A DNA stretch of 64,000 nt from an uncultured virus (IMG/VR IMGVR_UViG_3300007541_000015) (taxonomy: Duplodnaviria; Heunggongvirae; Uroviricota; Caudoviricetes): IMG/VR virus record IMGVR_UViG_3300007541_000015. One strand, given 5' to 3'. The notes under the pieces were generated by a model that was not told the DNA's origin, ran no database searches, and saw nothing but the letters and a program-made list of their open reading frames with translations. The translations under genes were made by a program, and so were the position numbers. Shown piece after piece: positions 1 through 61,197 of this stretch. Positions within the stretch are counted from its first letter, which is position 1, and each line of letters starts with the position of its first letter.

Positions 1-24
1 GTGAGCGGGAAAAGCGGGGCTAGG

Positions 25-186
25 TCAACCCCAACCCCCTTAAAACCCTCCAAAGGCGTTTTCGTTAACCATCTAAATGTTTTACCCCCCCCCCCCTTTT
101 TTGTCCCCTCCCCCCCCCCCCCTGTGTTTCTCTCTCCCTGTGTAGTAGTAGTAGTAGTAGTATAATAATAATAAATATATAATAAT
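25..186. repeat. Low-complexity non-coding region: poly-C tracts, (GTA)n and (ATA)n microsatellites
   Basis: C runs at about 85-96 and 110-123, gtagtagtagtagtagtag at about 142-160, ataataataa at about 164-186. Confidence 0.9.
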
Positions 187-437
187 GAAGAAACTCCTAC
201 CTACTGTTGCACTACCCTCCTGTTTTGGGCGGTTTCTATTATTCTAGCCCCCCTGCCCGCCTTAGAAACATCAATTTGCATAGTTATAGGTATAGCATAT
301 GAATATACATCATAGGTATAGGTGCAATTGAAACGACCCATATGAAATGGAGTCTATTTTGCAGGATAATATTTCATACCTAAACTGACATAGGCAGGGG
401 AGAGCATCTAAGCCACTTTCATTCTATTCCGCCTTTC

Positions 438-456
438 CATATGGTATGGTTCTTTG
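438..456. repeat. Cassette-boundary site 1 (half-site: CATATG-N8-CTTTG, right arm only)
   Basis: catatggtatggttctttg; matches the right half of the downstream palindromic sites. Confidence 0.75.
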
Positions 457-494
457 TCCAAATACCCTAAGAATACAGATTTTCGGGTTTTAGC

Positions 495-800
495 ATGAAC
501 GTAGCAACCGTGGGGCTTTGTGCAGGACGCCATGAAATCAAGACCAACGATGGACAACCCGTTGAACAATTCATTTTCCAAGAGATTGAGAATCCCTTGG
601 ACTTTGAATACCTTCGGAGCGTTTCCATCGCTTTCAACGCTGCACTCGATGTTTTCGGTGCTGATGTTTTGCACCTTTACGTCACCGGCCTTACTTCTGC
701 TTTGACCGCTTTTCTGGCGGTTTGCAGCACTCCCGACAGCGTGATTTTGATGCACTTCAACCGCGAAACGGGTAAATATGAGCCTCAGGTCTTTTACTGA
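495..800 (+). CDS. Cassette 1 protein (101 aa), small alpha/beta protein, possibly SAVED/Csx3-like fold
   Basis: Leaderless ATG 31 nt after ACCCTA box; GRH...LHLYVTGLT...MHFNRETGKY motifs; followed by hairpins. Confidence 0.75.
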   Translation: MNVATVGLCAGRHEIKTNDGQPVEQFIFQEIENPLDFEYLRSVSIAFNAALDVFGADVLHLYVTGLTSALTAFLAVCSTPDSVILMHFNRETGKYEPQVFY

Positions 801-807
801 GGTCATA

Positions 808-829
808 GGGCGAAAGCCCCCCTTCGGGG
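808..829 (+). terminator. Tandem tetraloop hairpins (GGGC-GAAA-GCCC, CCC-TTCG-GGG)
   Basis: Directly after the cassette 1 stop codon and before site 2. Confidence 0.6.
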
Positions 830-835
830 TCTATC

Positions 836-866
836 CCAAAGTAAGACCATATGGTAGCAACTTTGG
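836..866. repeat. Cassette-boundary site 2 (CCAAAG-N6-CATATG-N7-CTTTGG)
   Basis: ccaaagtaagaccatatggtagcaactttgg; first 20 bp identical to 1309-1328. Confidence 0.9.
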
Positions 867-904
867 TTGACTAACCCTATGAATCTGATTATCCGGTTTA
901 GGGT

Positions 905-1114
905 ATGATGACCCGAAAGGATTTCGAGAAGTTTGCATGGTCTTTTGCTCGAATTGTGGCGAGGCACTCTAACACAGAATACACCCTTTACGGGGTCTAT
1001 GATTTGATTTATGCCTTTTGCGACACCTGCAAGCAAATCAACCCGCGTTTTGATGCTGAGCGTTTTATGGCGCAAATTGAGAAGGACGCAGAAAACTTTC
1101 CTGCGGAGGGATGA
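905..1114 (+). CDS. Cassette 2 protein A (69 aa hypothetical)
   Basis: Leaderless ATG 31 nt after ACCCTA box; MTRKDF...NPRFDAERF pattern typical of small phage proteins. Confidence 0.75.
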   Translation: MMTRKDFEKFAWSFARIVARHSNTEYTLYGVYDLIYAFCDTCKQINPRFDAERFMAQIEKDAENFPAEG

Positions 1115-1116
1115 AT

Positions 1117-1257
1117 ATGGACAACTGTAAATACTGCAAAAGCGAAAGATGCGGAACGTCAATCCGTTACTGCCGGACTTGTTCCGGTGTGACTGAAATG
1201 CGAGCGTGTGATGAGCGAGCAGATGATGAAAGATGGTGCAACGGGAGGCGGTGTTAA
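1117..1257 (+). CDS. Cassette 2 protein B, Cys-rich 46 aa (MDNCKYCKSERCGTSIRYCRTC...)
   Basis: Translated by hand; GGAGGG RBS upstream; two CxxC pairs; followed by hairpin 1277-1294. Confidence 0.6.
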   Translation: MDNCKYCKSERCGTSIRYCRTCSGVTEMRACDERADDERWCNGRRC

Positions 1258-1308
1258 GCCCAAAACGACCAATGACCCACCCTTTAGGGGGTGGCGAGGT
1301 CATTTAGA

Positions 1309-1339
1309 CCAAAGTAAGACCATATGGTTGTTATCTTTG
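1309..1339. repeat. Cassette-boundary site 3
   Basis: ccaaagtaagaccatatggttgttatctttg. Confidence 0.9.
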
Positions 1340-1407
1340 TTGAACAACCGTAAGAATACCGACAATTCGGCATGGGTGCTGAAATAGGCACAAAATGAGG
1401 TATAACG

Positions 1408-1683
1408 ATGAAATACGAGACATACTGCAATTATTGCGGCTACGACATTGTGATTGAAGGGGTTGTAATCAACAATTTCGACCCTGAGGAAATTTTTTGC
1501 GAGGAATGCGGTGAGGAACCGTTGTCCGAGGAAGAGAAAGCCCGAAAAGCCGAGGAACGGCGAACCTGCGACATTGAATGGCTTAGGTCAATTTCGCACC
1601 ACTTCGACACCGAGGCCATGAAAAAAATCGTCGCCTTGCCCGGTTATGCCGACAAAGGCATCACAATGGCCGACCTCGCTTGA
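1408..1683 (+). CDS. Cassette 3 zinc-ribbon protein (91 aa)
   Basis: CNYC...CEEC; GAGGT RBS; hairpin at 1725-1756. Confidence 0.75.
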   Translation: MKYETYCNYCGYDIVIEGVVINNFDPEEIFCEECGEEPLSEEEKARKAEERRTCDIEWLRSISHHFDTEAMKKIVALPGYADKGITMADLA

Positions 1684-1724
1684 ATTGCGAGCAATCGGAA
1701 CAACTCACGGCAAACGCCGAGGCC

Positions 1725-1756
1725 GGACGGGAGGGGGCTGCGGCCCCTTCTCGTCC
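1725..1756 (+). terminator. GC-rich stem-loop at end of cassette 3
   Basis: ggacgggagggggc-tgcg-gccccttctcgtcc. Confidence 0.6.
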
Positions 1757-1774
1757 TCATCGGGTAATTGAAGC

Positions 1775-1807
1775 CCAAAGTATCAAACCATATGGTTTAT
1801 TGCTTTG
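1775..1807. repeat. Cassette-boundary site 4
   Basis: ccaaagtatcaaaccatatggtttattgctttg. Confidence 0.9.
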
Positions 1808-1903
1808 TTAAATGAAATGATAAACCCCATATACCTTCTTTTGGTCGTTTAGGTGTCGAAGGGGGACACAAAACCGGAGACACAACCTAACGAGGTGAAC
1901 ATC

Positions 1904-2422
1904 ATGGAAAAAGATACAGAATATTGGACTTCAAAGGTCCAAACGGTGAATGCATGGATGGAGCAGAATGACGCGGGCAGTATGTCTGAAGTCTTGAGGC
2001 TCCAAAACGACCTGTTGGCGGCTAACGTCGCAAATCCTACCGAGGCGGAACGTCTTTGGACGGCAATTCGCGCCATTGGCGCTATGCTCCCAAATACGTT
2101 TGTCAAGCGCGGTCGCGGCTCGACTCTCTCACCGGAGATTCAGGCCGCTGTGGATTCTGTGGCGAATGCGGTCGAAACTGCCTTTGCGGGCTTTTATGAG
2201 GCGAATTGGGCTCTTCTTTCGGGAATTGTCCTTCCTCACGGAAAGACGGGCGGTTCTTACGCTTCGGCTCAAGATGCCGCAAAGAACGAAGGAGCGCGTG
2301 TTTCGCGTGTTCTGAAGACGGCTCTCAAGGAGGACCGTTGGGATGGCTCCGCTCAAGACGGAATGCCGCTCAACCTGATTCCTCCAATGGCCTCTGAAAC
2401 GGAGGGCGATGAAGAGGAGTGA
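1904..2422 (+). CDS. Cassette 4 protein (172 aa), paralog of 3558-4043
   Basis: GAGGTGA RBS before ATG 1904; shares AWMxxNDAGxM, RLWxAIRAIxAMLPN, GRGS and HGKxGG with the 3558-4043 product. Confidence 0.85.
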   Translation: MEKDTEYWTSKVQTVNAWMEQNDAGSMSEVLRLQNDLLAANVANPTEAERLWTAIRAIGAMLPNTFVKRGRGSTLSPEIQAAVDSVANAVETAFAGFYEANWALLSGIVLPHGKTGGSYASAQDAAKNEGARVSRVLKTALKEDRWDGSAQDGMPLNLIPPMASETEGDEEE

Positions 2423-2454
2423 TTTTCGGGATTGTGTCCCCCTTTGGCCCCTTT

Positions 2455-2470
2455 GCCCCCTTCGGGGGGC
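2455..2470 (+). terminator. UUCG-tetraloop hairpin ending cassette 4
   Basis: gccccc-ttcg-gggggc. Confidence 0.6.
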
Positions 2471-2492
2471 ATTGGGGTTCATTGCAAGCAAT

Positions 2493-2523
2493 CAAAGTCT
2501 AGAACCATATGGTATGGCCTTTG
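2493..2523. repeat. Cassette-boundary site 5
   Basis: caaagtctagaaccatatggtatggcctttg. Confidence 0.9.
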
Positions 2524-2560
2524 AATGAAATATACCTTAATCATCTTTAACTGCCGGTTA

Positions 2561-2938
2561 GGGATGGTTAGTATTTTCCATTCCCTCCCCGGTATTCGTG
2601 ACTGAACGGGTGAAATAAAATAACCGTTTTCCTCAGACGTAGCGAGGCGCGTGGAAGTTGTGTCGAAACTCCTGCTTTAACCCAGCACAAGGCAACATTA
2701 AGCAAAGCACCCCCGCATTGCTTGAAATAAATTATGAGTTGGTGGTGATGCCTAAGTCACATTATGTGGCCCATGATTCCCTATTCCAATGGTTTAGGGA
2801 TAGTGCGTCAAAAAAGGCCTCATAATTGGTCCATTAAGCCGATGCCCTAAAATAATTAAGCGAATTGAATAGAAATCTGAATTGCGCTACCGCCGGGGCA
2901 AATCATCCTTAATTGGATGATTTTGGGGGTAGCGTTTT
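2561..2938 (+). ncRNA. Putative structured non-coding RNA occupying cassette 5
   Basis: Promoter-like ACCTTAATCA at 2534; no ORF of 60 aa or more; multiple helices incl. AATTATGAG(2730-38)/CTCATAATT(2819-27) and a long terminal hairpin 2885-2934. Confidence 0.5.
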
Positions 2939-2946
2939 AACAAACT

Positions 2947-2977
2947 CAAAGACTACTACCATATGGTTCGCACTTTG
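2947..2977. repeat. Cassette-boundary site 6
   Basis: caaagactactaccatatggttcgcactttg. Confidence 0.9.
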
Positions 2978-3042
2978 GTTTATGCAGAACCTCGCCTCCC
3001 TGCCCCTAAGGGCAGGAAGGGTCATTGGTTCCCGTTTTCCCC

Positions 3043-3348
3043 TCATTCATCGTAGTGAATCATCTTTCGCAGCGTGTTGATGGTGTCGAGGCATTCACGC
3101 AAACGCCTCAATTCGTCGCGCTGGTTCTGCCAATAACCATGATATTCATCACGCTTCTTTTGGGTTTGACGCAAAGCGTCCTGTGTCTGTTCAGCCACTT
3201 GCATCAAGTCAATGAGAGCAGTTAGGGTGTTCTCGCTGAGGTCTTCTGTCTTCGTCACTTTTTCAAGCGTTTTTGCGAGTTTTAGAGCATGATTGACGCT
3301 CACAAGCCCACAATTCGTCAGGTTCCTGATTTTCTGTTCTGTTACCAT
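3043..3348 (-). CDS. Cassette 6 coiled-coil protein (about 101 aa, MVTEQKIRNL...)
   Basis: GGAGG RBS before ATG 3348; hairpin 2999-3016 downstream; ACCCCA promoter box at 3398 (-). Confidence 0.75.
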   Translation of the reverse strand: MVTEQKIRNLTNCGLVSVNHALKLAKTLEKVTKTEDLSENTLTALIDLMQVAEQTQDALRQTQKKRDEYHGYWQNQRDELRRLRECLDTINTLRKMIHYDE

Positions 3349-3407
3349 GTTTTTTGCCTCCTTGGACACCCAAAGGTAACAATTACGGTTTATGGGGTAG
3401 CCAATAG

Positions 3408-3439
3408 CCAAAGTAGGCTACCATATGGTTTGGACTTTG
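3408..3439. repeat. Cassette-boundary site 7
   Basis: ccaaagtaggctaccatatggtttggactttg; 3419-3439 is the exact reverse complement of 4135-4155. Confidence 0.9.
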
Positions 3440-3557
3440 CATTGTAAATGAAACCCTATTATTATTTTTTCTTTTGGCGACTTACATGAACATTCCCGTC
3501 CTACGGGGGTCAATGCGCCTAAGAAAAATTGGGGCCTCATGGGGAGATTTGACACAA

Positions 3558-4043
3558 TCACTCTTCCTCGTTCACCTCCTGAACGGGGAAAATCTGAGAA
3601 TACAGCCCTTCGCGGGTTCCATCCCAGATTTCGTCGTTGTATCGCTTCTTCAGGTCAGAAGCCATTTTCGCCGCATGGGTTTCAATGACTTCATCCTGAT
3701 TGGCGAAAAGACCGCCACCGCTCTTTCCGTGCTTTCGCATCAAATAGCGGTTTTCTGCGGCATTCCACGCCAGACCCATTTCAACGCCGTAATCGTGAGA
3801 AATGGCATCAATGAGGGTTTGGACCTCAACAGGCAGGGAAGAACCACGGCCCTTCTTGATTGGCGAATTGGGCAGCATTGCTGCAATTGCCCTGATTGCT
3901 TGCCAAAGGCGGTCGCGGTCTTGTTCGGTTTCGGCAGGGAGGGCCATTTGTGCTTCAAGCACTTGAGCCATCGCGCCAGCGTCGTTTTCGTTCATCCACG
4001 CACGAACTTTTTGAAGGTTCTTTGCATACTTTTCTTGTTCCAT
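3558..4043 (-). CDS. Cassette 7 protein (161 aa), paralog of 1904-2422
   Basis: GAGGTGA RBS; collinear similarity to the cassette 4 product, incl. acidic EEE C-terminus. Confidence 0.85.
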   Translation of the reverse strand: MEQEKYAKNLQKVRAWMNENDAGAMAQVLEAQMALPAETEQDRDRLWQAIRAIAAMLPNSPIKKGRGSSLPVEVQTLIDAISHDYGVEMGLAWNAAENRYLMRKHGKSGGGLFANQDEVIETHAAKMASDLKKRYNDEIWDGTREGLYSQIFPVQEVNEEE

Positions 4044-4134
4044 GATGTTTCACCTCGTTTTGGTGTCTTGTCTCCCCATGAGACAACTAAGCCTTCAATT
4101 TGGGGACTAATAGGGTTTATTTCATTCTTCAACT

Positions 4135-4163
4135 CAAAGTCCAAACCATATGGTAATGCTTTG
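4135..4163. repeat. Cassette-boundary site 8
   Basis: caaagtccaaaccatatggtaatgctttg. Confidence 0.9.
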
Positions 4164-4208
4164 AATTACCACAAGGGACTTACGGATTAACCTGCCCTTG
4201 TGCCTAAT

Positions 4209-4403
4209 TTAGCACCAATCACCTTCAAAGTCTTCAGAGCCCATCGCTTTCATAAAAGCAACACATTCATAGCACCAATTCCGGTCATACATGAATTTAT
4301 AGCCCCTGATTACAGGATGACGGCTGCATTCATATTTGCCCCTTTCACGAGGCGTTCCGTCTGAGTATGTTCCGCGATTTTTCTCATATGGCTTCTCTTC
4401 CAT
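4209..4403 (-). CDS. Cassette 8 protein (64 aa, Cys/His-containing)
   Basis: Leaderless ATG 31 nt after ACCCTA box (4434, -); CSRH...CYEC; hairpin 4170-4202 downstream. Confidence 0.7.
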   Translation of the reverse strand: MEEKPYEKNRGTYSDGTPRERGKYECSRHPVIRGYKFMYDRNWCYECVAFMKAMGSEDFEGDWC

Positions 4404-4440
4404 GTTGAAAACTCTATTTTGAGGGATTTAGGGTTATTAA

Positions 4441-4465
4441 CCAAAGTTACAACCATATGGCTTTG
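4441..4465. repeat. Cassette-boundary site 9 (left arm intact, right arm collapsed)
   Basis: ccaaagttacaaccatatggctttg. Confidence 0.8.
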
Positions 4466-4604
4466 TTCCAAATTTTTTATTTCAATGTTTATTTTGCAAC
4501 GTTGATTTTATTACTTCAACCATGCTAAATTAACATAAAAACTCGCCATTTTGCGCCATTGGTGTCAATCTGGTAGCAATAGTTTGGCCTACCGGCATGG
4601 TTAT

Positions 4605-4856
4605 ATGCCCTACAAGACTACGACAATACGAGGGAAGCATTTGGCTACTGAAGATTCAGTCAAACAACATCTTAGTGCAGTAGTTGCCTCTATCGAGTCA
4701 TTACTCGCAGACATACAGGGAAACGCTGCTAAAGATAGCAAGCAATCCGATGAAGTCAAACAACTCGTTAAGGAGATACAGAAACAATTAAACACAGTCA
4801 AAAAAGAATTACTTGACTACATGAACCCCAAAACCGTTCAAACAACATTGTTTTGA
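4605..4856 (+). CDS. Coiled-coil hypothetical protein ending in QTTLF (clamp-binding-like motif)
   Basis: ORF from ATG 4605 (MPYKTTT...). Confidence 0.6.
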   Translation: MPYKTTTIRGKHLATEDSVKQHLSAVVASIESLLADIQGNAAKDSKQSDEVKQLVKEIQKQLNTVKKELLDYMNPKTVQTTLF

Positions 4857-4990
4857 TTCGATTGTTTACTTTGCAAATTAAACATTTAAATGTTAACATT
4901 TTTTCGTTAAAATAAAAAAGCGCAGGTTAGAAGATTCAAATTTTAAACTGGAAATACATAAATTAAAATTTAAAAATAAACGCTAGTGCC

Positions 4991-5223
4991 AAAAAAATTC
5001 CGCGCCATTTTTTGAGAAACTTTTTCATTATACAGCATAGGTGAGCAATATGAGTTGGGAAAAAATTGTTAAACAAGAAACACATCTTCTAGATGCAAAA
5101 GAATTCATAGACAGAGCAATTATTAGTCTAGCAAGAACAGGCGAACATGGAGAAGTTCGTATGGAATTAACTCGCATTCTCGATAAACTGTGATAAAAAA
5201 TTCCGCCCCATTTTTTTGAGAAA
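4991..5223 (+). repeat. Two imperfect ~29 bp direct repeats (AAAAAATTCCGCxCCATTTTTTGAGAAA)
   Basis: Copies at 4991-5019 and 5195-5223 flank ORF 5050-5193. Confidence 0.8.
5050..5193 (+). CDS. Small protein (47 aa) with N-terminal MSWEKIVK motif
   Basis: Translated by hand; GGTGA RBS. Confidence 0.7.
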   Translation: MSWEKIVKQETHLLDAKEFIDRAIISLARTGEHGEVRMELTRILDKL

Positions 5224-5238
5224 AACAAGGTGACTAAT

Positions 5239-5493
5239 ATGACTTGGGAAGACGTTATTAAAGAAAATCCAAAATTTAGGATGGGTGGGAGAGTTACTCA
5301 CAGTCCTCAAAAAGCCGCTAGATTTACTGAAAGTATGATTAATGATTTGCTAAAAGAGATTATGGAATTGGAAACAGTTCAAGAATTAGCAAGAAATGAT
5401 AACCTTACTAGAGTTGCACACAGAGCCTTTGCTGATGGGTTAAATAGAATCCTCGGTTATAATGAAGAATTACGTGATATGTTAAAAGAATAA
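5239..5493 (+). CDS. Hypothetical protein, MTWEDVIK motif
   Basis: AGGTGA RBS; shared motif. Confidence 0.75.
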   Translation: MTWEDVIKENPKFRMGGRVTHSPQKAARFTESMINDLLKEIMELETVQELARNDNLTRVAHRAFADGLNRILGYNEELRDMLKE

Positions 5494-5503
5494 GGTGATT
5501 AAT

Positions 5504-5833
5504 ATGACTTGGAAAAACATCATATTAAAAAATGAAGAATTTAAAGACGAGAAATTTTTTATTAGCGAAAATGGTAACAGTTTCATAAGTGGCTCGTTTA
5601 ATACCGCTGACTTAAGATTCGGTTTAAAAGGCTCTACCTTTGGTAAAATTATAGATTTAGCCAAAGGCCACAAAGATGCTTTTAAGTCTTATTCCATTGA
5701 TACAAAAAATGGAGTCATTTTAGATTTTAAGATGGACCCCTATAATGAAAAGATGAATGAGGCATTTGACACGTTAGTGACTGAGATTTATCAATTGTTA
5801 AGAAAATCAAAATATGTGAATCTGTTTGCATGA
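5504..5833 (+). CDS. Hypothetical protein, MTWKNIILK motif
   Basis: AGGTGA RBS; shared motif. Confidence 0.75.
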   Translation: MTWKNIILKNEEFKDEKFFISENGNSFISGSFNTADLRFGLKGSTFGKIIDLAKGHKDAFKSYSIDTKNGVILDFKMDPYNEKMNEAFDTLVTEIYQLLRKSKYVNLFA

Positions 5834-5843
5834 GGTGAGAATT

Positions 5844-6116
5844 ATGACAGACTTCGATTGGTATAACCAAAAAGAATACAGTTTCACAAAAGCCCCTATG
5901 TGCCGCGTTTCAAAGTGCGCGGCGCGATTGTGTGTTTATAACGCAGGTGGAAAATGCACCCTTCCCGAAGTTGAAATCAACTCAAAGGGAAGTTGCGAAT
6001 CTTTTAGGGATGAAGGCGAAAGAGCATTAGGTAGTCTTAATCAAGCAGGAAGAACTCCTAAGATGGACCTTCCAAACCCTCTTAAGAATGTTCAAGACCA
6101 TTTGAAGCGTAGGTGA
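5844..6116 (+). CDS. Cys-rich small protein (DUF1540-like)
   Basis: CAARLCVYNAGGKC...CESF; GAGGTGA RBS. Confidence 0.6.
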   Translation: MTDFDWYNQKEYSFTKAPMCRVSKCAARLCVYNAGGKCTLPEVEINSKGSCESFRDEGERALGSLNQAGRTPKMDLPNPLKNVQDHLKRR

Positions 6117-6120
6117 TATT

Positions 6121-6474
6121 ATGACTTGGTTTGATATCGTAAAGATTCAAACCGCTAATAGTATGTTTTCCGAATTGGCTAATCCGAAGCAAAAGGTAGC
6201 AGAAGTTGAAACATTTGGCGACTCCTGCTGCGAAACTGCTAGAGAACAATTAAAAGACCTTATATTGAATAGTCAAGGTTATCTATTAACAAGAACAGGT
6301 GCTAAATTATACGGTCAAGATGCAGCAAACCACATTGATGGCAAAGATTGTCAATGGTTAAAAAGTTTCATTCAACGAAGGTATGACACAAGAAATCACT
6401 CTAGTGTAAACCCCAGAAATAAAGAAGAAATTGAAAGAATTTATAATGATTGGGAGGAATGTGAACGTGCCTGA
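6121..6474 (+). CDS. Hypothetical protein, MTWFDIVK motif
   Basis: AGGTGA RBS; shared motif. Confidence 0.75.
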   Translation: MTWFDIVKIQTANSMFSELANPKQKVAEVETFGDSCCETAREQLKDLILNSQGYLLTRTGAKLYGQDAANHIDGKDCQWLKSFIQRRYDTRNHSSVNPRNKEEIERIYNDWEECERA

Positions 6475-6859
6475 ATGGTTTGAACTTCTGAAGATGCTTT
6501 TACCGCGTCAGTTTATGGAGAATATCCAAAACGATTACGGTGGTAGTTTCAAGGGTGGAGTAAATAAGAAGGGAGAACCTGATTTTGAACTCGTTTCAGA
6601 TTGGGGAAGAGTTACACTTAAACAGGGATATGACGGAAAGTTACATGTGGTGGTTGTTCTTAGCAATTCAAAAAATATTTCAATTTCCGGCTATAATCTA
6701 AATAAAATGCTAACGCAAGTCAATGCCTTCCTCAACAGAGAGTTAAATAACGAGGACGCTCTCAAGGGAGCAGGAGCGGTAGTTTCAACAACGCCCGGTA
6801 TTCACAACTTAAGATATTCTAAGAGGGATAAGGATGGTAAAGAAGAAACAGACAATTGA
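6467..6859 (+). CDS. Hypothetical protein (GTG start, PEWFELLK motif)
   Basis: GGAGG RBS; shared motif. Confidence 0.65.
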   Translation: MPEWFELLKMLLPRQFMENIQNDYGGSFKGGVNKKGEPDFELVSDWGRVTLKQGYDGKLHVVVVLSNSKNISISGYNLNKMLTQVNAFLNRELNNEDALKGAGAVVSTTPGIHNLRYSKRDKDGKEETDN

Positions 6860-7847
6860 CCACCCGACTCTTCCCGGTGTAAAAATTACCGTTGAAGATT
6901 TAAGAATTTCGCAACCTTTCCTTAATTGGAAGAACAAATGTGAAAGTCTTAGTGGTGATGATATCGGCACTAAGGAAGAATCTGGTAGCCTATACGAGCA
7001 AATTACCCAACACGTCAATGATATGGTTAGACGCCGTGAATCCAAAAATGATGGAACAGACGGAGCATTTATTCTTCTAAATGATATTTCAGATATTTTA
7101 CAAGAACCATATCCTGCTTCAAAAGAAGTTAAGGAATTACGCAGGTTTATTGAAAAATTGGATGAATTTAGAGTAGCAGATTCTACTCTTAATCCTAGAA
7201 ATACCCTATTTAGAGAACATGAAGACTATGCCAAAGTTCGCGGGAAGGTCGTTCCTCGCGGTAAGAAGGTTGAAATTTACGGTCACTATAGAACTCCTCA
7301 ATTTAAAGCAAAAACAGGCGCAGAATGGTCTGCTCCGAGTAGTTGGGCTAGCAGGGAAAAGAACCGTGCAACCCCTCCTTACTATCAAGCCCTCTTTGGA
7401 ACAGGAACAGAAGGTTTGGGGATTACGGGTCTTTACTACATTATTGAACAGGCTATCGAAGATATCGAAGAAGCCGAAGTGGACTTAACTATTACCAATA
7501 TTGGCCTAATTAACAAATTGACAAAATTAAGCACCTTAGGTTCTTATCTTAACAATATTCTTAAGAATCCAGAGTTTTATACTGAAGACTCGCTTGATTC
7601 GGCTAAGATTGCTCGACACTTGAAAGTTACTCCTTTTGAAGTAACAGGAAAGGTAGGCGATGAAGTTGAGCGCATTTTTGGTATTGAAGGAGAAATTAAT
7701 GAAATCTTCTTTGATTTGTCCCCGAAGAACGTAAGAGAATTGTTTAGTCGGGCTGCTAGCAGAAACCCAAAGGTTCCTGAAAATTTTGTTAATCCCAAGA
7801 CTAAGAAAGAAGTTGTCATGAAATGGGATGATGTTCTTAGGGCGTGA
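6834..7847 (+). CDS. Hypothetical protein (337 aa) with C-terminal MKWDDVLRA motif
   Basis: Long ORF in operon. Confidence 0.75.
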   Translation: MVKKKQTIDHPTLPGVKITVEDLRISQPFLNWKNKCESLSGDDIGTKEESGSLYEQITQHVNDMVRRRESKNDGTDGAFILLNDISDILQEPYPASKEVKELRRFIEKLDEFRVADSTLNPRNTLFREHEDYAKVRGKVVPRGKKVEIYGHYRTPQFKAKTGAEWSAPSSWASREKNRATPPYYQALFGTGTEGLGITGLYYIIEQAIEDIEEAEVDLTITNIGLINKLTKLSTLGSYLNNILKNPEFYTEDSLDSAKIARHLKVTPFEVTGKVGDEVERIFGIEGEINEIFFDLSPKNVRELFSRAASRNPKVPENFVNPKTKKEVVMKWDDVLRA

Positions 7848-7851
7848 TTAA

Positions 7852-8109
7852 ATGGATTGGAAAACAATCCTTAAAACATTTACAGAAGAAGATGTAGAAA
7901 AATTCAAAAAAGTAACTGAGGAATTTTTGGGGAAGGAGTATTCAGAAAACGTGTTCAATACTGTAACTCCTAAAAATTTAATGCGGGTAGTTATGGCAGA
8001 AAAAGAAGAAATGTTAGCAAATCTACGGGCTAGCATTATGAGTATTAATGCTGAAGACCTCAAAAATATGCAAGATTACATTTCTGCTCTTGAAGAAATT
8101 ATAGCGTGA
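7852..8109 (+). CDS. Hypothetical protein, MDWKTILK motif
   Basis: ORF; shared motif; N-terminal part resembles 13496-13768. Confidence 0.75.
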   Translation: MDWKTILKTFTEEDVEKFKKVTEEFLGKEYSENVFNTVTPKNLMRVVMAEKEEMLANLRASIMSINAEDLKNMQDYISALEEIIA

Positions 8110-42534: not shown

Positions 42535-43629
42535 ATGTATGACGTTTTGGTAGGAAAACAGCGTTCTCTTGTTTTTCCTGTTATGTGTAACGCATACGTC
42601 AAAATTGACTACGGTAGCAACGTAGCAACAACAGATTACGGTATTTGGGACCATGAAGGTTCTTTTACTTTTGAAGCAATTGTTACACCTTATGATGTAA
42701 ATGGATATTGCCGATTATCAACAGGTGGTTCACTTCCCGTTATTAGAGATTCAAAGAAAATTATGCCGGGATTTGATTCAAGAATTGCAGGGAATTATCA
42801 AAGCAACAAATATCTAAATATTGGAAATCGCCTTGTTCATAAAATGTGTTTGTTTTATAGCACTTCTTTAAAAATCTATTTAGTGAACAGCACACTACAC
42901 AATGAGAATAAACCTGCTGAATATAAAATTCAAGTTGAAATGACCATTGGTGGAACAACTGAAACCTTTACTAGCGGTGCTGTCATTACTTCTAACTTAG
43001 ACCAACAGTTTGACTATTCTGGTTCAGACCTTTCAGGGTTCAATAAATTAGGAAAACTCCAATATGATAAAATTACTCAAGTGAACGGTGACTTTACCGC
43101 TCCGGTGTCGTCGTTTGATGTGGACTCCGCTTCTCGCCTCCATGCTAACGCTCAGACCGTGTATATACGCGACGGATTCAACTTCGTGCCTGTTGGGACC
43201 ATCTCAGGATTATCGGGCCTCACGGTTAGTCTAACGACGCCATATTCGGAAGGCTTAAGCAACAATACCGACCTGTTTCTTGAGGCTTACCGCGAACCTT
43301 CGTATATCAACTCCTTTTATCACATTGCAGTAACATATTCAAAAACTCTCAATACTATCACTTTATACCTAAATGGTCTTCAAGTATTGCAAGATACACA
43401 TTCTAATTCAGGAACTTTTGCGTTTGACCAAGAAGACTTTTATATCGGGGCCAATAATACCGGCTCAAGGGGAGACAATTCAGCATTAGCAAATGAACAA
43501 TTCATGGGAGAATTACATGAATTGTCTATTTCAAATGTTAAAAAGGATACCTTTCAAAGTTATTCTAACTTGATGCCTAATTTAAACAATGCTCTTCTTT
43601 ATTTGAGATTTGAGGAGGTGGATAACTAA
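42535..43629 (+). CDS. Tail protein with LamG/concanavalin-like domain
   Basis: FTFEAIV...YHIAVTY...LYLNG...FYIG...FMGELHEL. Confidence 0.7.
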   Translation: MYDVLVGKQRSLVFPVMCNAYVKIDYGSNVATTDYGIWDHEGSFTFEAIVTPYDVNGYCRLSTGGSLPVIRDSKKIMPGFDSRIAGNYQSNKYLNIGNRLVHKMCLFYSTSLKIYLVNSTLHNENKPAEYKIQVEMTIGGTTETFTSGAVITSNLDQQFDYSGSDLSGFNKLGKLQYDKITQVNGDFTAPVSSFDVDSASRLHANAQTVYIRDGFNFVPVGTISGLSGLTVSLTTPYSEGLSNNTDLFLEAYREPSYINSFYHIAVTYSKTLNTITLYLNGLQVLQDTHSNSGTFAFDQEDFYIGANNTGSRGDNSALANEQFMGELHELSISNVKKDTFQSYSNLMPNLNNALLYLRFEEVDN

Positions 43630-46600
43630 TGTCAACTCTTAGAGTTTTTAACAAAGGAGAAACTAGCGTTTCTTCTGTATTTAATACAAACTGTCCCACC
43701 AATGCAAAACTCACTACTCAATCAACAGGAACAGGACGATTCTTTACTGTTATTCATTCCGATGATTCTCAAAATGCTACCTTTAGTGAAATTAAGGCAA
43801 GCACCGGATTGCTTACTGAGTATTCAAATCAAGCCAATACAGAAGGCTTCAAAATCCGTTGCTATGATAGTGCAGATGATGTAGGTATTCAATTGAATGG
43901 TTTAGATGCTAACGATTATTACTTTGTTCTTATTCATTCTGATAATGAAAACATGCACCATTTTGCTAGGATTACTGAGTTTTTAACAGAAGATGTTGAT
44001 GGTGATGCATTTGAATTTACTCCAAAATTGGGAAACCAAGTAAATAAAAATGTAAAATTTATGCTATTTAAAGGAACAAATATGAACACGGCGATTGCTG
44101 TATCTTGTGGTCTTAAAGAAGGATTACGAGATAATTTAGTTTGTGCTCGTCCTCTTTTCTATTTCCTTAATGGCTTAGATAAGAGTGGTGAATTAAACCA
44201 TAACACGAAATATTACGCGGCAGTTGGATATACTTCAAGTGGTGCTAGCATTACACCAAACACCTTAACTACCACATTCTTAACAGAGCAAGATTATTCA
44301 AATAAAATCGTAGATTATAGTCTGTATTCACTTAACGTGACCCTAACTGATTTAAACAGAGAGGGAGATATCGCGGCAACTCCGGTTGCACAGGAAACCT
44401 ACGTTCTTCCCTCGGCAGATTATACTGACTATGAAGATGTTTTTTACAACGCCAGAAGAGAAACCTCAGATAATGCTACTGTTACGACATTAAGAGGTCC
44501 GACTCGATACGTTCATTATGATTATTCTCCAGACTATTGTAATCTAATGCAAGGTGTTTTTGAGACTGAAATTGAAGACTCGGTTGAAAGCAGGTCCGGT
44601 TTTGCAGAATCAACTGCAATTGATAATAAAAGGATTTATCCAAAGAAGATTAGTGAAGATGAACCATACCGAATCCGCCACATGGTTCACACAGGAACAA
44701 TTGATGAATGGTTTGAATTACAGGCGGAAGTATCTAATTATATTTCTGCCTTTAGGAGATATATTTTTACTTCTGATTACCCTATTAACGATTTGATTGC
44801 AACTAATGACGTTGTTAAATTAAATGGTAGGTTACTAATCGTTACATCAACAAGTGCTGGTAGCATTGATGTTTCAAATTACAGTAGATTAGAAACAGAA
44901 AGTGAATTTACCAATACCTTTACTAATTTTTCTTTATTGACAGGTAGTTTATATCGTCGTGCTTACAGTCAAAGTAAAGGAACATTACTCACTACTTTCC
45001 CTATCATTGAAAGTCGAGATAGCAAAATATTCATTAGATTTATGTCTAACAACTTCGGATTTATTTACGCTAACGTTAGTGATTCAAATAAAGTTCAACA
45101 GACTTTAACGCTATCTTTTTCAGGTGATTCATACCACGGCGAAATGCTAAAATATGTTTCAGGGAAGTATATCATTTTCATTGAAAGGTTTGATGGGGTG
45201 GTGGAATCCTTTGAGAGTTTTAAAGAAAATGGACAAACAATGGCTACTGTTAAGGGCAGAAACAATTTTAGAAAGTTACTTTCCCCAATTGTTAATACTA
45301 ACAAATTATTCTCTAGAGACATTATTTACAGTTCTAGGTCTTTCTATAATAAACTAACAGATACTACAAAAACTGTTGATACTACCAATTCAATAGTTGG
45401 AAATTCTAAAACCTTCGATGTTTCTTCTAGCGGTTTTTCTTTTGTTTCTGGCGATATTGTTTTTGTTAAGTTTGCAAATAATTCCATCGCTTATGTAGGC
45501 ATTGTTGATTCCTACACATACCCGACAGTAACTCTTGAAGATTACCCTAAGTCGTTAGTTGAAGGAGCATCATCTGTTGGACTTTATGTTGCTAGAGATA
45601 AAAATTATATTTTGAACAAGGCTCTCTCTTCAAACGCAAATCTATCCCAAACTGTTTCTTCCCTTAACGGAGCAGCAGGTAAAGGTATTTATTTTGAAGG
45701 TGGGACTAAATTACAGTCTAATGGTTCTGATGGTGAATCTCTAATTGGTTCTTCTTCTGATGATAATGCTAATGCTTTAGGCTATCCTATCTTTGAACCG
45801 GATGAGATTCTTTCGGATTTAGAATTCCAAACAAAACTTAAAGGAACTAGCACATCGGCTGAAACATTTGATACTGTAAATACTCTTATTGATTTTGAGG
45901 TATTGGGTATTAAAAATGAAGAGACATATTCTATTATTGAGTTGGCTCCATATTTACCTTTGACTTTAGGCCGAGTTGATTATCAATATAGTAATACCAC
46001 AGATTCTTCTTTCAGCAATAGAGGTTCCGTTTCAGCAACTACTAACTCTAAGTATTTTACCTGTTCTACAACAACAGCATTAATTTATAATGAACCATTA
46101 TATGTTGATGGTGTATTTATTGGAAAATTTGTTTATCAGGTGACTAATTCTTCAAATGTTTCTGTTGTCTATATTGATAGAAAGGCTACATTTTCTTCTG
46201 GGCAACTGCAAGTTTTAGAAGATAAACAAGCAACATACGCTGAAAAAGAACATCCAATATATTCTATGTCTTTAGTTAATGGAGCACATTTGCATGGTGG
46301 AAAAGCAATTAGTTTATTACATCCATTTACTATTGATAGTGCAACTAATAATCATTTGACTACTTTTAACCCTGTAACCTTTTTTTCTGGTTCTTCATAT
46401 GAAGAGAATTATAATGTCAAATTTGGTTCTCCATATTATAGAATTATGAATTTAGAGTTTGGTAGAGTTGAAAAATATTCTAGCACAATTGCTGATTGGT
46501 CTGACGATTACGATTTAGATTATTATTCAGAAAATCCTAGTTCTATTAAGTATTATGGTGAAGCCTATCGTTTAAATCCGGGCTTTACGTCTTCAGTTGT

Positions 46601-58229: not shown

Positions 58230-59117
58230 TTACCACCACTCATCTAGTGTTAATTGTATTCTATTCGTTCTGATGCTTGAAGTTTCCCACCCCATAGCCT
58301 TATACACAGGTTCTGCTTTTTTAATTACAGACTCAGCATAATACTCATAATCTGCATTCCACTTATCAAACTCTTCATAAGTCGAAGCAGAAACATATTC
58401 CACCGGCTTCTTTTCCTTTGTTAAGGGATGGGTGTAAGTTTTACCCTGTGCATTTACCTTCAAGAAAAGGTAAGAATCATCAAACTCAGTATCTGTGTGT
58501 TCCCAAGCATAAAGAACACCTGCGATACCTTCTTTGATTGAAGGTTTTTTGTATTCTAAGGTAACGAAACTCGATGAATCTTTACCGCACTTTTCGCACC
58601 ATTTTGAATGGAGCATATTTCTCAATTCATGATGTTTTTTACAGTCAGGGCATTTTACTGTCATCCTGTTGTCTTTTAGACGACTTCTCTTGATAATCGA
58701 AGCCAATGGAACATCGCCTTTCAGAACAGATTGATAAGTCTCATAGAGATAAGACGTAATTTCTGCCTGAGATTTTTGAGCAGCCCACATTTTCAGAACA
58801 GTTGTCTGAACTTCCTTCGAGAGTTTTGTTTCGCTAACTCTTTTTGCGGTGTAGCCGGTCATCGTGAATTTTTCTTTGTCTAAAAATACACCATCTTCCC
58901 AAGTAATCATGCCCGCGTTTCGATTCTTAGTTACACCCACACCAAGAGCAGAAAAATACTTCTCAAACTCAAGGACAACGGGGTGTTCATCAAGATTCAT
59001 TACGTTTGGAAAAATCTTACGAACTCGTTCTTGAATAAGAGCAACTTTTTCAAGTGCTTCTTCAACAGAATCAATCTGAACATAGATTGAATCTGTGTGT
59101 CCATAAACTACTTTCAT
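58230..59117 (-). CDS. polB: Family B DNA polymerase, C-terminal half (motif C, thumb)
   Basis: YGHTDS motif C, KNRNAG, G..AKR; Zn-finger insertion; C-terminal QLTLDEWW PIP-like. Confidence 0.88.
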   Translation of the reverse strand: MKVVYGHTDSIYVQIDSVEEALEKVALIQERVRKIFPNVMNLDEHPVVLEFEKYFSALGVGVTKNRNAGMITWEDGVFLDKEKFTMTGYTAKRVSETKLSKEVQTTVLKMWAAQKSQAEITSYLYETYQSVLKGDVPLASIIKRSRLKDNRMTVKCPDCKKHHELRNMLHSKWCEKCGKDSSSFVTLEYKKPSIKEGIAGVLYAWEHTDTEFDDSYLFLKVNAQGKTYTHPLTKEKKPVEYVSASTYEEFDKWNADYEYYAESVIKKAEPVYKAMGWETSSIRTNRIQLTLDEWW

Positions 59118-59332
59118 TTCCACCAACTACCATTTCCATTATAATGCAAGAATTTTGAAGCAGGTGCTTCATGCATTTCTTGGATTTCTCGAATTGCTTC
59201 CCATATAGTTTTGAATCCTTCGATGGCGTTAAGAATATCTTCTCGCTCATCTTCCAATTCATTGATTCTATGAATCGCTTCTTCAAGTCGTTGTTCCAAC
59301 AGATTTATTCTACTTTCATTATCTAGTTTCAT
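59114..59332 (-). CDS. Small coiled-coil protein between polB halves
   Basis: ORF with ATGA overlaps at both ends. Confidence 0.65.
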   Translation of the reverse strand: MKLDNESRINLLEQRLEEAIHRINELEDEREDILNAIEGFKTIWEAIREIQEMHEAPASKFLHYNGNGSWWK

Positions 59333-61196: not shown

Positions 61197-61197
61197 T

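What the first reader, a model, noticed from the sequence alone, without database searches (positions are those of the whole stretch)
2524..2946. One cassette carries no protein gene but a candidate ~375-nt structured RNA
Seen: unit 5 has the same promoter-like box (ACCTTAATCA at 2534), but only a 13-codon ORF at the expected start and no ORF of 60 aa or more. It has many complementary segments: GGGATGG(2561)/CCATTCCC(2578), TTGTG(2658)/CACAA(2686), AAGCAA(2700)/TTGCTT(2718), and a long-range AATTATGAG(2730)/CTCATAATT(2819) pair enclosing TCCCTA(2778)/TAGGGA(2795). It ends in a hairpin CGCTACC..AAATCATCC-loop-GGATGATTT..GGTAGCG (2885-2934) followed by TTTT. Inference: a viral multi-helix ncRNA expressed as an early cassette, such as a decoy or anti-defence RNA, ribozyme or regulator. 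I could not match it to tRNA, RNase P or hammerhead motifs.
Basis: partly seen in the sequence, partly recalled or inferred. Interest (0 to 1): 0.7.

Follow-up and report, generated by a model that had tools for sequence, protein, structure and literature searches.

The report
Gene-less RNA cassette in archaeal virus
One unit in a row of small, self-contained gene cassettes at the end of a marine archaeal virus genome carries no protein gene and most likely makes a roughly 380-base folded RNA of a family not described before, whose function is unknown.

Summary
The virus is magrovirus-like (an archaeal virus). Window 1-4500 holds nine CAAAG..CCATATGG..CTTTG palindromes, each followed by an archaeal BRE/TATA-like box and mostly leaderless small genes. 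Unit 2493-2977 keeps this frame but opens only 13 codons.

Only two other DNA lineages carry it (G051/L130 and L200). They share the promoter, one small hairpin block and the 3' ~140 nt. The middle cannot be aligned.

It is not coding. There is no shared ORF, the relatives differ by single-base indels, and it has no protein-level likeness to any other cassette.

In L130 versus L200 (91-93% identical), substitutions preserve predicted plus-strand pairs: 0-4 broken against about 10-12 expected (0-1 of 300-500 permutations). The minus strand and three flanking coding cassettes show no such bias.

A 403-nt contig from an RNA library covers this unit alone, at depth 86 against 11 and 7 for two neighbouring units.

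Against the reading: in the window itself, folding energy is no better than that of coding neighbours, the plus promoter scores weakly, and a strong antisense promoter-like site exists.

Rfam gives no match. manA-type RNAs fill equivalent cassettes in relatives. This scan had already noted such arrays on other DNA.

Verdict: probable new viral ncRNA family, function unknown.

The parts
2493..2523 (.). Left bounding palindrome CAAAG-N6-CCATATGG-N7-CTTTG, shared upstream element of the cassette promoters.
   Evidence: Seven full copies and nine CCATATGG cores lie in window 1-4500, with 0 and 0.58 expected by chance. The same element is clustered in about 100 related viral contigs.
2531..2544 (+). 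BRE/TATA-like box (ATATACCTTAATCA) of the plus-strand promoter.
   Evidence: It lies where the consensus (a)ACCYTAWAWA sits, at -31..-21, in 86 leaderless-class cassettes. The box part scores 6.3 bits, but the whole promoter scores only 1.8-3.6 in the window, against 17.4 in G051 and 14.8 in L200.
2564..2605 (+). Predicted transcription start and a 13-codon ORF at the canonical leaderless position, 59 nt after the CCATATGG start.
   Evidence: Translation. The spacing mode of 55-69 nt holds for 79 of 178 cassettes. manA-type RNAs of relatives start 56-71 nt after the palindrome. The relatives open 20 codons at the same place. L130 and L200 differ there by 4 non-synonymous and 0 synonymous changes (my reading).
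2573..2694 (+). Replaceable 5' segment.
   Evidence: In the RNA-library contig, these 122 nt are replaced by 126 other letters while both flanks match (table 5). The segment cannot be aligned with L130/L200 (28-42% identity in 40-nt windows).
2634..2658 (+). Small conserved hairpin block (ACGUAGCGAGGCGCGUGGAAGU).
   Evidence: It is aligned in A1/A2 and is the only local match of the sister-lineage model R2 within the unit (2635-2653, E about 7). By my reading, 4 of 5 pairs are kept and the loop has changed.
2806..2884 (+). Conserved 3' block, including hairpin 2832-2844 (C-AUU-AAGCC-GAU-G).
   Evidence: 78.7% identical over 75 nt to L130. Two pairs of the 4-bp hairpin changed on both sides and stayed paired (AU to UA, UA to GC). 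A 1-nt indel lies inside the block (CATAATTGG versus CATAG-TGG).
2885..2938 (+). Terminal hairpin plus T-run; probable 3' end of the plus-strand RNA.
   Evidence: The outer stem CTACC/GGTAG is conserved. The inner stem has a different sequence but is paired in both lineages (AAATCATCC/GGATGATTT versus GGTTCATT/AATGGACC). The RNA-library contig ends at 2927.
2896..2929 (-). Antisense promoter-like site: box ACCCCCAAAATCA at 2929-2917, ATG at 2906 (60 nt from the right palindrome) opening 16 codons.
   Evidence: Promoter matrix score 12.1, top 0.04% of window positions. Translation. The site is absent in G051 (-1.0) and L200 (-0.5).
2947..2977 (.). Right bounding palindrome. To its right the cassettes are on the minus strand.
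   Evidence: In G051 the same unit sits in a co-directional array.

Best explanation
The unit 2493-2977 is a stand-alone RNA gene in the cassette array of a magrovirus-like archaeal virus. Like its protein-coding neighbours, it has the upstream palindrome and a BRE/TATA-type box. The predicted start is about 58-60 nt after CCATATGG (about 2564), and a terminal hairpin with a T-run ends it at about 2935. Its product is a roughly 370-380-nt non-coding plus-strand RNA.

The conserved, and therefore probably active, part is the 3' ~140 nt: single-stranded A-rich linkers, a 4-bp hairpin with loop AAGCC, and the terminal hairpin. The 5'/middle part is free to be replaced between lineages.

Shown:
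- the cassette frame;
- the absence of a conserved ORF;
- the conserved blocks;
- strand-specific preservation of structure in the sister lineages;
- presence in an RNA library as a cassette-sized contig.

Inferred:
- the start and end points and the strand in the window;
- that it acts in trans as an abundant RNA that binds or titrates a host or viral factor. This is the decoy or scaffold type, as opposed to an antisense regulator. No complementarity to the rest of the window was found.
For: Cassette frame. The palindromes and box are documented. The ATG at +59 opens only 13 codons.

Not coding.
- The relatives open 20 unrelated codons at the same place.
- A 1-nt indel lies inside the best-conserved block.
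- L130 and L200 differ by four single-base indels within the predicted transcript.
- The 108-aa antisense ORF of L200 is broken in L130.
- All 134 six-frame tblastn hits fall within the unit's own copies. No other locus held is hit at E<=0.01.

Structure, L130 versus L200, plus strand. Pairs were taken from the single-sequence fold of one genome and scored in the other.
- Changed pairs kept/broken: 11/4 and 15/1. Permutation mean broken 11.7 and 11.0. 0 of 500 permutations in each case were as low.
- Repeat on a second alignment: 9/4 and 13/0, with 1 of 300 and 0 of 300.
- Minus strand: 66-314 of 300-500 permutations were as low.
- Three flanking coding cassettes of the same genome pair: 33/300 to 293/300 on either strand.
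- Of 97 consensus pairs, 10 vary and all 10 stay paired: 8 changed on one side, 2 on both.

Window versus L130. The terminal hairpin's inner stem is rebuilt, and hairpin 2832-2844 has two pairs changed on both sides.

Expression. In RNA-library run X1, a 403-nt contig at depth 86 maps to 2530-2572 and 2695-2927 and bridges neither palindrome. Separate contigs cover 1868-2446 (depth 11) and 3606-4068 (depth 7).

Precedent. manA-type RNAs (RF01745) fill equivalent cassettes in 10 of 80 related contigs, and in G051 one lies right beside the homolog of this unit. They start 56-71 nt after the palindrome.
Against: - In the window, the fold is no more stable than shuffles once the terminal hairpin is left out (z -1.50). 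It is also no more stable than the coding neighbours (z -3.64 and -3.02). The L130 unit has z -0.92.
- The 5'/middle fold of the sister lineage (model R2) has no full-length match in the window. The middle ~230 nt are at random-level identity.
- The window-versus-L130 substitution test on the 3' domain is not significant (38/500 and 106/500).
- The comparative signal rests on one genome pair. The tool's own shuffle control has no power with two rows (112/500).
- The window's plus promoter scores only 1.8-3.6, whereas an antisense site scores 12.1.
- The RNA contig starts at 2530, 34 nt upstream of the predicted start. It comes from a variant virus, carries no strand information, and the tool warns that DNA can be present in an RNA library.
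- The family is rare. Model R1 hit 1 of 100 related contigs. Six pattern scans of whole collections found only three DNA lineages.
- The higher identity than the neighbouring cassettes (91-93% against 75-89%) could reflect recent cassette exchange and not stronger constraint.
Confidence: 0.6

Rival explanations
1. Relic cassette. A former protein-coding unit lost its ORF. The promoter, start codon and terminator hairpin survive and are still transcribed, but the RNA has no function.
For: - A canonical leaderless ATG is followed by only 13 or 20 codons.
- The context CCGGTTAGGG-ATG resembles that of coding neighbours (CCGGTTTAGGGTATG at 905).
- The middle is unalignable between lineages and is replaced in the RNA variant.
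- Folding energy is unremarkable.
Against: - The gene-less state and the ~450-nt length are kept in lineages whose coding genes are only 55-67% identical.
- The 3' ~140 nt are conserved right up to the palindrome, whereas the blastn match of the paralog-A cassette stops 33 nt after its stop codon.
- Substitutions between L130 and L200 avoid breaking plus-strand pairs.
- The RNA contig is the deepest of the three that mapped.
Confidence: 0.15
2. In the window lineage the unit is a convergent sense/antisense pair. The plus promoter (start about 2564) and the strong minus promoter on the left flank of the 2959 palindrome (start about 2896-2909) fire into each other. The product is an overlapping RNA duplex or a transcription-collision buffer at the point where the array changes direction.
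For: - The minus-side promoter score of 12.1 is as high as that of working cassette promoters, with an ATG at the canonical +60.
- The RNA contig extends 34 nt left of the plus start and about 20-30 nt right of the minus start. This is what the union of two convergent transcripts would give.
- The unit lies exactly between plus-strand and minus-strand cassettes.
- In G051 one palindrome does serve two divergent RNA cassettes.
Against: - The minus site is absent in G051 and L200 (-1.0 and -0.5), where the unit lies in a co-directional array.
- The structure-preserving substitutions are specific to the plus strand.
- Contigs carry no strand information.
Confidence: 0.12
3. Micro-protein gene. 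The leaderless 13-codon (window) or 20-codon (L130/L200) ORF is the product, and the remaining ~330 nt are a long 3' untranslated region.
For: - The ATG is at the canonical leaderless position in all three lineages.
- The C-terminal ends look alike (SLPGIRD* versus SLKGFR*), with third-position differences in the S, L, G and R codons (my reading).
Against: - The lengths differ and the N-terminal parts are unrelated.
- L130 and L200 differ by 4 non-synonymous and 0 synonymous changes.
- The RNA variant diverges from codon 4 onward.
- In L130/L200 the AUG is paired in the closing helix.
- This reading does not explain the conserved 3' domain.
Confidence: 0.07
4. DNA-level element, such as a recombination, packaging or replication site near the genome end, and not an RNA.
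For: - The unit lies in the terminal ~4.5 kb of the window, among palindromes at which cassettes are reordered and inverted.
- L130/L200 carry a 14-nt perfect palindrome, TGAATCATGATTCA, in the 3' domain.
Against: - Substitutions tolerate G-U only on the plus strand, which points to a single-stranded plus-sense molecule.
- The unit has its own promoter and appears as a cassette-sized contig in an RNA library.
- No iterons or AT-rich unwinding stretch were seen.
Confidence: 0.05

Closest known systems
manA RNA motif (Rfam RF01745; Weinberg et al. 2010, PMC2864571, passages read; cryo-EM preprint 10.64898/2026.07.01.735769, passages read)
   Same: A structured RNA of marine viral DNA. In relatives of this virus it fills whole palindrome-bounded cassettes and starts at the same distance from the palindrome. 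In G051 it is the divergent neighbour of this unit's homolog.
   Different: The unit gives no manA match at E<=10 in the window or in L130 1100-2010, and the conserved motifs differ. manA was described as a candidate cis-regulatory element or riboswitch of bacteria and cyanophages.
PeSL (promoter-early stem-loop) cassettes of the hyperplastic regions of T4-type phages (Arbiol et al. 2010, PMC2839356, abstract read; lead from earlier scan notes)
   Same: Small non-essential genes, each framed by a strong promoter and a stem-loop. Recombination between the repeated frames shuffles the units. Cassette order and orientation differ between the window and G051.
   Different: PeSLs use bacterial sigma-70-type promoters. 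Here the frame is a CCATATGG-centred palindrome plus an archaeal BRE/TATA box with leaderless starts. The abstract read describes HPRs as rich in nonessential genes and names no RNA cargo.
Large phage-borne ncRNAs of unknown function such as GOLLD and ROOL (recalled, not read here)
   Same: Several-hundred-nt multi-helix RNAs carried by viruses, sometimes next to tRNA genes. G051 has tRNAs 4-7 kb away.
   Different: No Rfam family reaches its cut-off anywhere in the window. This RNA is smaller and is known from only three DNA lineages.
Viral decoy RNAs: RNA anti-CRISPRs and pseudo-ToxI antitoxin RNAs (recalled, not read here)
   Same: Non-coding products of variable accessory regions that act by mimicry or titration. 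This is the functional type proposed here.
   Different: No repeat units, no CRISPR-like repeat and no partner gene were seen. The resemblance is one of genomic setting only.

Membership tests
manA RNA (RF01745) | Covariance-model score at or above the gathering score of 55.2 bits. | tested here: not met
   No manA match in window 2300-3200 at E<=10, in window 1-8000 at E<=1, or in the whole window at gathering thresholds. The neighbouring cassette in G051 does match (43.7 bits).
Any Rfam 15 family, tRNA or tmRNA | A match over the family threshold, or an ARAGORN call. | tested here: not met
   0 matches over gathering thresholds in 64 kb. Only chance-level hits outside the unit body in E-value mode. 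0 tRNA or tmRNA genes. The L130 and L200 homologs also give nothing.
Protein-coding cassette of the array | An ORF conserved among homologs, with indels in multiples of three. | tested here: not met
   The longest ORF is 55 aa with a TTG start. The relatives have different ORFs. Single-base indels separate the copies.
Protein-coding cassette of the array | Protein-level similarity to other cassette products. | tested here: not met
   Six-frame tblastn against all loci held gave no hit outside the unit's own copies at E<=0.01. PHROGs gave nothing for the three short ORFs. The large public protein collections were not searched.
Palindrome-bounded cassette of magrovirus arrays | Bounded on both sides by CAAAG..CCATATGG..CTTTG. 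| tested here: met
   2493-2523 and 2947-2977.
Palindrome-bounded cassette of magrovirus arrays | BRE/TATA-like box about 28-38 nt, and a start about 55-66 nt, after CCATATGG. | tested here: inconclusive
   The box ACCTTAATCA and an ATG at +59 are present. The matrix score is only 1.8-3.6 in the window, against 17.4 and 14.8 in the homologs.
Structured non-coding RNA gene | Transcribed as a discrete unit. | tested here: inconclusive
   One RNA-library run holds a cassette-sized contig at depth 86. It consists of contigs only and comes from a variant virus. There is no strand information, no ends can be read, and DNA carry-over cannot be excluded.
Structured non-coding RNA gene | Substitutions that keep base pairs (covariation). 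| tested here: inconclusive
   Met for the sister pair L130/L200 on the plus strand only. Not significant for the window versus L130. Only three DNA lineages exist, so R-scape-type statistics are not possible.
Structured non-coding RNA gene | Folding energy below that of dinucleotide shuffles. | tested here: not met
   z -1.50 to -2.99, depending on whether the terminal hairpin is included. L130 has z -0.92. Coding neighbours have z -3.02 and -3.64.
Magrovirus (virus of Marine Group II archaea) | Head-tail virus of about 90-100 kb with an archaeal-type replication set. Group B has a split family-B DNA polymerase. | tested here: met
   The PolB is split into 557-aa and 298-aa ORFs. An ATP-dependent ligase is present. 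All 11 MCP matches are to archaeal tailed viruses. Related contigs are 92-98 kb, some with terminal repeats. The split DNAP of group B is stated in PMC5434244 (passages read). The host was not tested.

The most novel reading that the evidence does not exclude
Archaeal viruses of the open ocean carry, in a shuffling array of promoter cassettes, stand-alone genes for abundant folded RNAs: manA-type RNAs and this undescribed family. These RNAs would be part of the takeover or counter-defence toolkit, acting as decoys, scaffolds or self-assembling particles. This unit would then be the founding member of a new RNA class with a fixed 3' effector domain and an exchangeable 5' module.
Probability: 0.25. 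Interest if true: 0.75.

Novelty: new member of a known kind. Interest (0 to 1): 0.55.

Why it matters
Non-coding RNA genes of archaeal viruses are almost unexplored. None of the three magrovirus papers that I searched for the words promoter, palindrome, repeat, non-coding or intergenic mentions promoters, palindromes or RNA genes.

If this unit is a functional RNA, the accessory cassette arrays of these abundant ocean viruses carry RNA effectors alongside small proteins. The unit would also be a compact, testable example, with about 140 conserved nucleotides.

The side result has its own interest. manA-type RNAs sit as autonomous cassettes, starting exactly at the predicted transcription start, in viruses that appear to infect archaea. 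manA was proposed as a bacterial or cyanophage cis-regulator, and a 2026 preprint (passages read) reports that it forms RNA cages.

The family is rare, its function is unknown, and the evidence in the window itself is thin. The finding is a lead and not yet a result.

Tried and rejected
Searches that found nothing further:
- blastn of window 1-6000 against the phage collection: no match.
- The genome search with the unit's DNA over 50 related contigs: 0 hits. It did not even find G051, so the method was too insensitive and the result says nothing.
- nhmmer and blastn over all loci: only L130 beyond the unit's own copies. The weak full-length hit in L025 is driven by the two palindromes.
- Model R1 over 100 related contigs: only G051; all others E>0.15.
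- Pattern scans of viral contigs with four further conserved blocks: the same two contigs. A fifth, looser pattern gave 16 other loci, none matching R1 better than E 0.36.
- The metagenome pattern hits L203 and L204 and the genome hit L215 (a Gemmatimonadales MAG) are chance matches.

Models and structural tests:
- Model R2 (sister-lineage 5'/middle domain) on the window: no full-length match.
- Window-versus-L130 substitution test on the 3' domain: not significant.
- Shuffle control of the count of structure pairs: no power with two rows.

Target and family searches:
- Search for an antisense target inside the window: the best match is 12 nt, E>1. No host genome was available to search.
- The L200 antisense 108-aa ORF was considered as a real gene. 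I rejected it because L130, 93% identical, breaks it with single-base indels.
- Pfam and PHROGs on the small neighbouring proteins: nothing above threshold.

RNA run X1:
- Parts of window 1-6000 without cover tell nothing, because the run holds a variant virus.
- The base differences of the covering contig within the unit were not listed. They could therefore not be used for covariation.

The sigma-70 promoter and terminator scan was not run, because the virus is archaeal.
Full report
WHAT THE WINDOW IS

The window is the left part of a head-tail virus of about 95 kb. It encodes a portal, prohead protease, SU10-type capsid protein, terminase, ATP-dependent DNA ligase and a family-B DNA polymerase split into two ORFs, 59532-61205 and 58230-59126, both on the minus strand.
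- The polymerase's best tblastn matches are haloarchaeal tailed viruses at about 25% identity.
- All 11 matches of the capsid protein in the phage collection are archaeal tailed viruses.
- Philosof et al. 2017 (PMC5434244, passages read) describe magroviruses as terminally redundant genomes of about 100 kb. They give a split DNAP as the mark of group B.

I therefore read the virus as magrovirus-like. The host was not tested.

THE ARRAY

Window 1-4500 has 45-50% G+C against about 37% elsewhere. It holds nine CCATATGG cores (0.58 expected), seven of them inside full CAAAG-N-CCATATGG-N-CTTTG palindromes (0 expected).
- Between the palindromes lie single small genes. Five are on the plus strand up to 2422, and three are on the minus strand from 3043.
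- Each gene ends in a GC-rich hairpin.
Many of these contigs are 90-98 kb and carry clusters of the element.

From 224 distinct cassettes with an ORF of 50 aa or more, 86 have the ATG 52-66 nt after the CCATATGG start. Aligned on that ATG they give the following consensus:
- (a)ACCYTAWAWA at -31..-21;
- A or G at -3;
- C or T at -1;
- no Shine-Dalgarno motif.

This is the layout of an archaeal BRE/TATA promoter with a leaderless mRNA. The name for the layout rests on general knowledge, not on a test here. Cassettes of the window with longer spacing carry GAGGTGA or GGAGG before the ATG.

Order and orientation of the cassettes differ between the window and the complete relative G051. This agrees with three earlier notes of this scan on other genomes. 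Those notes compare the arrays with the PeSL cassettes of T4-type phages (Arbiol et al. 2010, abstract read).

THE OBSERVATION

The unit is unusual in having no gene: it has the 4th-lowest ATG-ORF coding fraction among 247 distinct cassettes.

Its self-complementarity is not unusual.
- z = -2.99 with the terminal hairpin.
- z = -1.79 from the predicted start.
- z = -1.50 without the hairpin.
- z = -3.64 and -3.02 for two coding neighbours.
- z = -0.92 for the L130 homolog.

Rfam finds nothing: 0 matches over gathering thresholds in the whole window, and nothing in the unit body at E<=10. ARAGORN finds no tRNA.

RELATIVES OF THE UNIT

Besides identical copies (G001/L038-40, L201), only two other DNA versions were found. 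One is G051 (= L130, L202, L205, L206). The other is the metagenome contig L200, which is 91-93% identical to G051 in this unit.
- A covariance model of the 3' domain (R1) hit 1 of 100 related contigs.
- Five further pattern scans of IMG/VR and one of GTDB genomes added nothing.

Window and G051 share four things:
- the palindrome plus box (97% over 35 nt);
- a short hairpin block at 2634-2658;
- the 3' ~140-170 nt (78.7% over 75 nt, 69.7% over 178 nt), running right up to the next palindrome;
- a middle of ~230 nt that sits at random-level identity.

By contrast, the blastn match of the paralog-A coding cassette stops 33 nt after its stop codon.

NOT CODING

- At the canonical start the window opens 13 codons, and L130 and L200 open 20.
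- The peptides are unrelated except for a short C-terminal resemblance.
- L130 and L200 differ there by four changes, all non-synonymous (my reading).
- The best-conserved block contains a 1-nt indel between the window and L130.
- L130 and L200 differ by four single-base indels inside the predicted transcript. Two of these break the 108-aa antisense ORF seen only in L200.
- Six-frame translations of all three versions hit nothing but themselves among all loci held.
- L130 and L200 are equally alike in all six frames.

STRUCTURE

I folded one of L130 or L200 on its own and asked what the other's substitutions do to those pairs. The control moved the same substitutions to random positions holding the same base.

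| Comparison | Changed pairs kept/broken | Expected broken | Permutations as low |
|---|---|---|---|
| Plus strand, | 11/4 and 15/1 | 11.7 and 11.0 | 0/500 and 0/500 |
| Plus strand, second alignment, | 9/4 and 13/0 | 10.4 and 10.0 | 1/300 and 0/300 |
| Minus strand, | 2-4 / 7-11 | 9.2 to 10.9 | 66/300 to 314/500 |
| Three flanking coding cassettes, either strand, | | | 33/300 to 293/300 |

In the RNAalifold consensus, 10 of 97 pairs vary and all 10 stay paired, spread over six helices. That structure was fitted to the two sequences. The tool's shuffle control has no power with two rows (112/500), so I rest on the single-sequence test.

The consensus closes the molecule by pairing the predicted 5' end with the stretch just before the terminal hairpin.

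Between the window and L130 three features hold up:
- The inner stem of the terminal hairpin has a different sequence but is paired in both.
- Hairpin 2832-2844 has two pairs changed on both sides.
- Block 2634-2658 keeps 4 of 5 pairs (my reading).

The formal test on the 3' domain is not significant (38/500 and 106/500). The sister lineage's 5'/middle domain is not found in the window.

So a selected plus-strand fold is shown for the sister lineage. For the window it is inferred for the 3' domain only.

EXPRESSION

One RNA-library run (X1, Logan contigs) holds related sequence.

| Record | Length | Depth | Window coordinates covered |
|---|---|---|---|
| 3 | 403 nt | 86 | 2530-2572 and 2695-2927, with 126 other letters in place of the 122 nt between them |
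| 1 | 578 nt | 11 | 1868-2446 |
| 4 | 462 nt | 7 | 3606-4068 |

- None of these contigs bridges a palindrome. DNA contigs of the same viruses run across many cassettes.
- Records 1 and 4 begin 13 and 17 nt inside the starts predicted by the promoter matrix (1855 and 4085).
- Record 3 begins 34 nt upstream of the predicted start at 2564.

Possible reasons for that early start are an upstream start, or an antisense RNA from the promoter-like site on the left flank of the 2959 palindrome. That site scores 12.1 and has an ATG at +60 opening 16 codons. It is absent in G051 and L200.

Contigs show neither strand nor ends, and DNA carry-over cannot be excluded. I therefore count this as moderate support for transcription and no support for the strand.

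PRECEDENT IN THE SAME ARRAYS

In G051, the cassette to the left of this unit's homolog matches Rfam manA (43.7 bits, E about 1e-9, below the 55.2-bit cut-off). It lies on the opposite strand and starts 57 nt from the shared palindrome.
- Over 80 related contigs, 10 have a manA match at E<=0.001, and two are over the cut-off at 84.7 and 64.4 bits.
- That search missed G051 at its first look.
- All 10 matches lie inside the arrays and start 56-71 nt after the upstream CCATATGG. Nine of the ten start at 56-60 nt.

RNA cassettes are thus a regular part of these arrays, and their starts support the promoter model. One earlier scan note had also recorded a manA-type RNA in such an array.

HOW IT MOST LIKELY WORKS

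The host's transcription machinery reads the box downstream of the palindrome, starts at about 2564, and stops at the terminal hairpin and T-run near 2935.

The RNA folds with its ends together. Its conserved 3' domain, made of A-rich linkers, the AAGCC-loop hairpin and the terminal hairpin, is the part under selection. The 5' part is exchangeable.

I found no target for base pairing in the window. With low confidence, I therefore favour a protein-binding, titrating or self-associating RNA over an antisense regulator. 'Early' timing is an inference from the position at the genome end and the small unknown genes around it.

NOVELTY AND VERDICT

This is probably a new family of viral non-coding RNA in an archaeal virus. 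It is one more example of a known kind, namely stand-alone folded RNAs of viruses, like the manA cassettes beside it.

In the held library I found no paper on promoters, palindromes or RNA genes of magroviruses:
- a search for 'magrovirus' and term look-ups in PMC5434244, PMC11706807 and PMC10160649;
- manA searches.
Supplements were not read.

The family is rare and the function is unknown. In the window itself the evidence is limited to the cassette frame, the missing ORF, the conserved 3' domain and one RNA-library contig.

Noticed in passing
window 1-4500; related loci L001-L193: An array of nine palindrome-bounded one-gene cassettes at 45-50% G+C, against about 37% in the rest of the genome. 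The consensus is an archaeal BRE/TATA box with leaderless ATGs 55-66 nt after CCATATGG. Cassette order and orientation are scrambled relative to G051. The same kind of array was noted earlier in this scan on other genomes.
   Followed up: partly
L130:1205-1484 (-) = G051 2926-3205; G054 44277-44483; G069 6442-6691; eight more contigs: Rfam manA (RF01745) RNAs occupy whole cassettes of these archaeal-virus arrays: 10 of 80 contigs at E<=0.001, two over the cut-off. They start 56-71 nt after the palindrome. In G051 one palindrome serves manA leftwards and this unit's homolog rightwards. The window has no manA.
   Followed up: partly
window 2896-2929 (-): The left flank of the 2959 palindrome, which is also the 3' arm of the unit's terminal hairpin, reads as a strong minus-strand promoter (score 12.1). 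It has an ATG at the canonical +60 opening 16 codons. The feature is specific to this lineage.
   Followed up: partly
window 1904-2422 (+) and 3558-4043 (-): Two paralogous genes of 172 and 161 aa with no known family lie in opposite orientation on either side of the unit. Both have homologs in G051 and L200 and are covered by RNA-library contigs.
   Followed up: partly
window 58230-61205 (-): The family-B DNA polymerase is split into a 557-aa and a 298-aa ORF, with about 400 nt between them (59127-59531). This is as described for group B magroviruses. The gap was not examined.
   Followed up: no
window 60-200: Long C-runs followed by (GTA)n and (ATA)n simple repeats at the very start of the window, possibly a genome terminus. 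The stretch 120-457 matches G051 6206-6549 in reverse.
   Followed up: no
window 5032-5833: Three tandem small genes (50, 87 and 112 aa) share a 58-nt repeated start region and an N-terminus of the type M-x-N-M-(S/T)-W. They lie just outside the GC-rich array and lack its palindromes.
   Followed up: no
window 43629-49766 (+): A 2045-aa ORF with no Pfam or PHROGs match, among tail genes.
   Followed up: no
L206 7723-7804 and 10196-10270 (G051): Two tRNA genes lie a few kb beyond the array in G051. The window has no tRNA.
   Followed up: no
L002 2446-3013; L181 737-1348; L066 4420-4907; L053 4495-4997; L051 3468-4609: Further cassettes of 300-600 nt in relatives have very low coding fraction and no manA match. 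These are possible additional RNA cassettes. L181 lies in a contig that was not part of the manA search.
   Followed up: no
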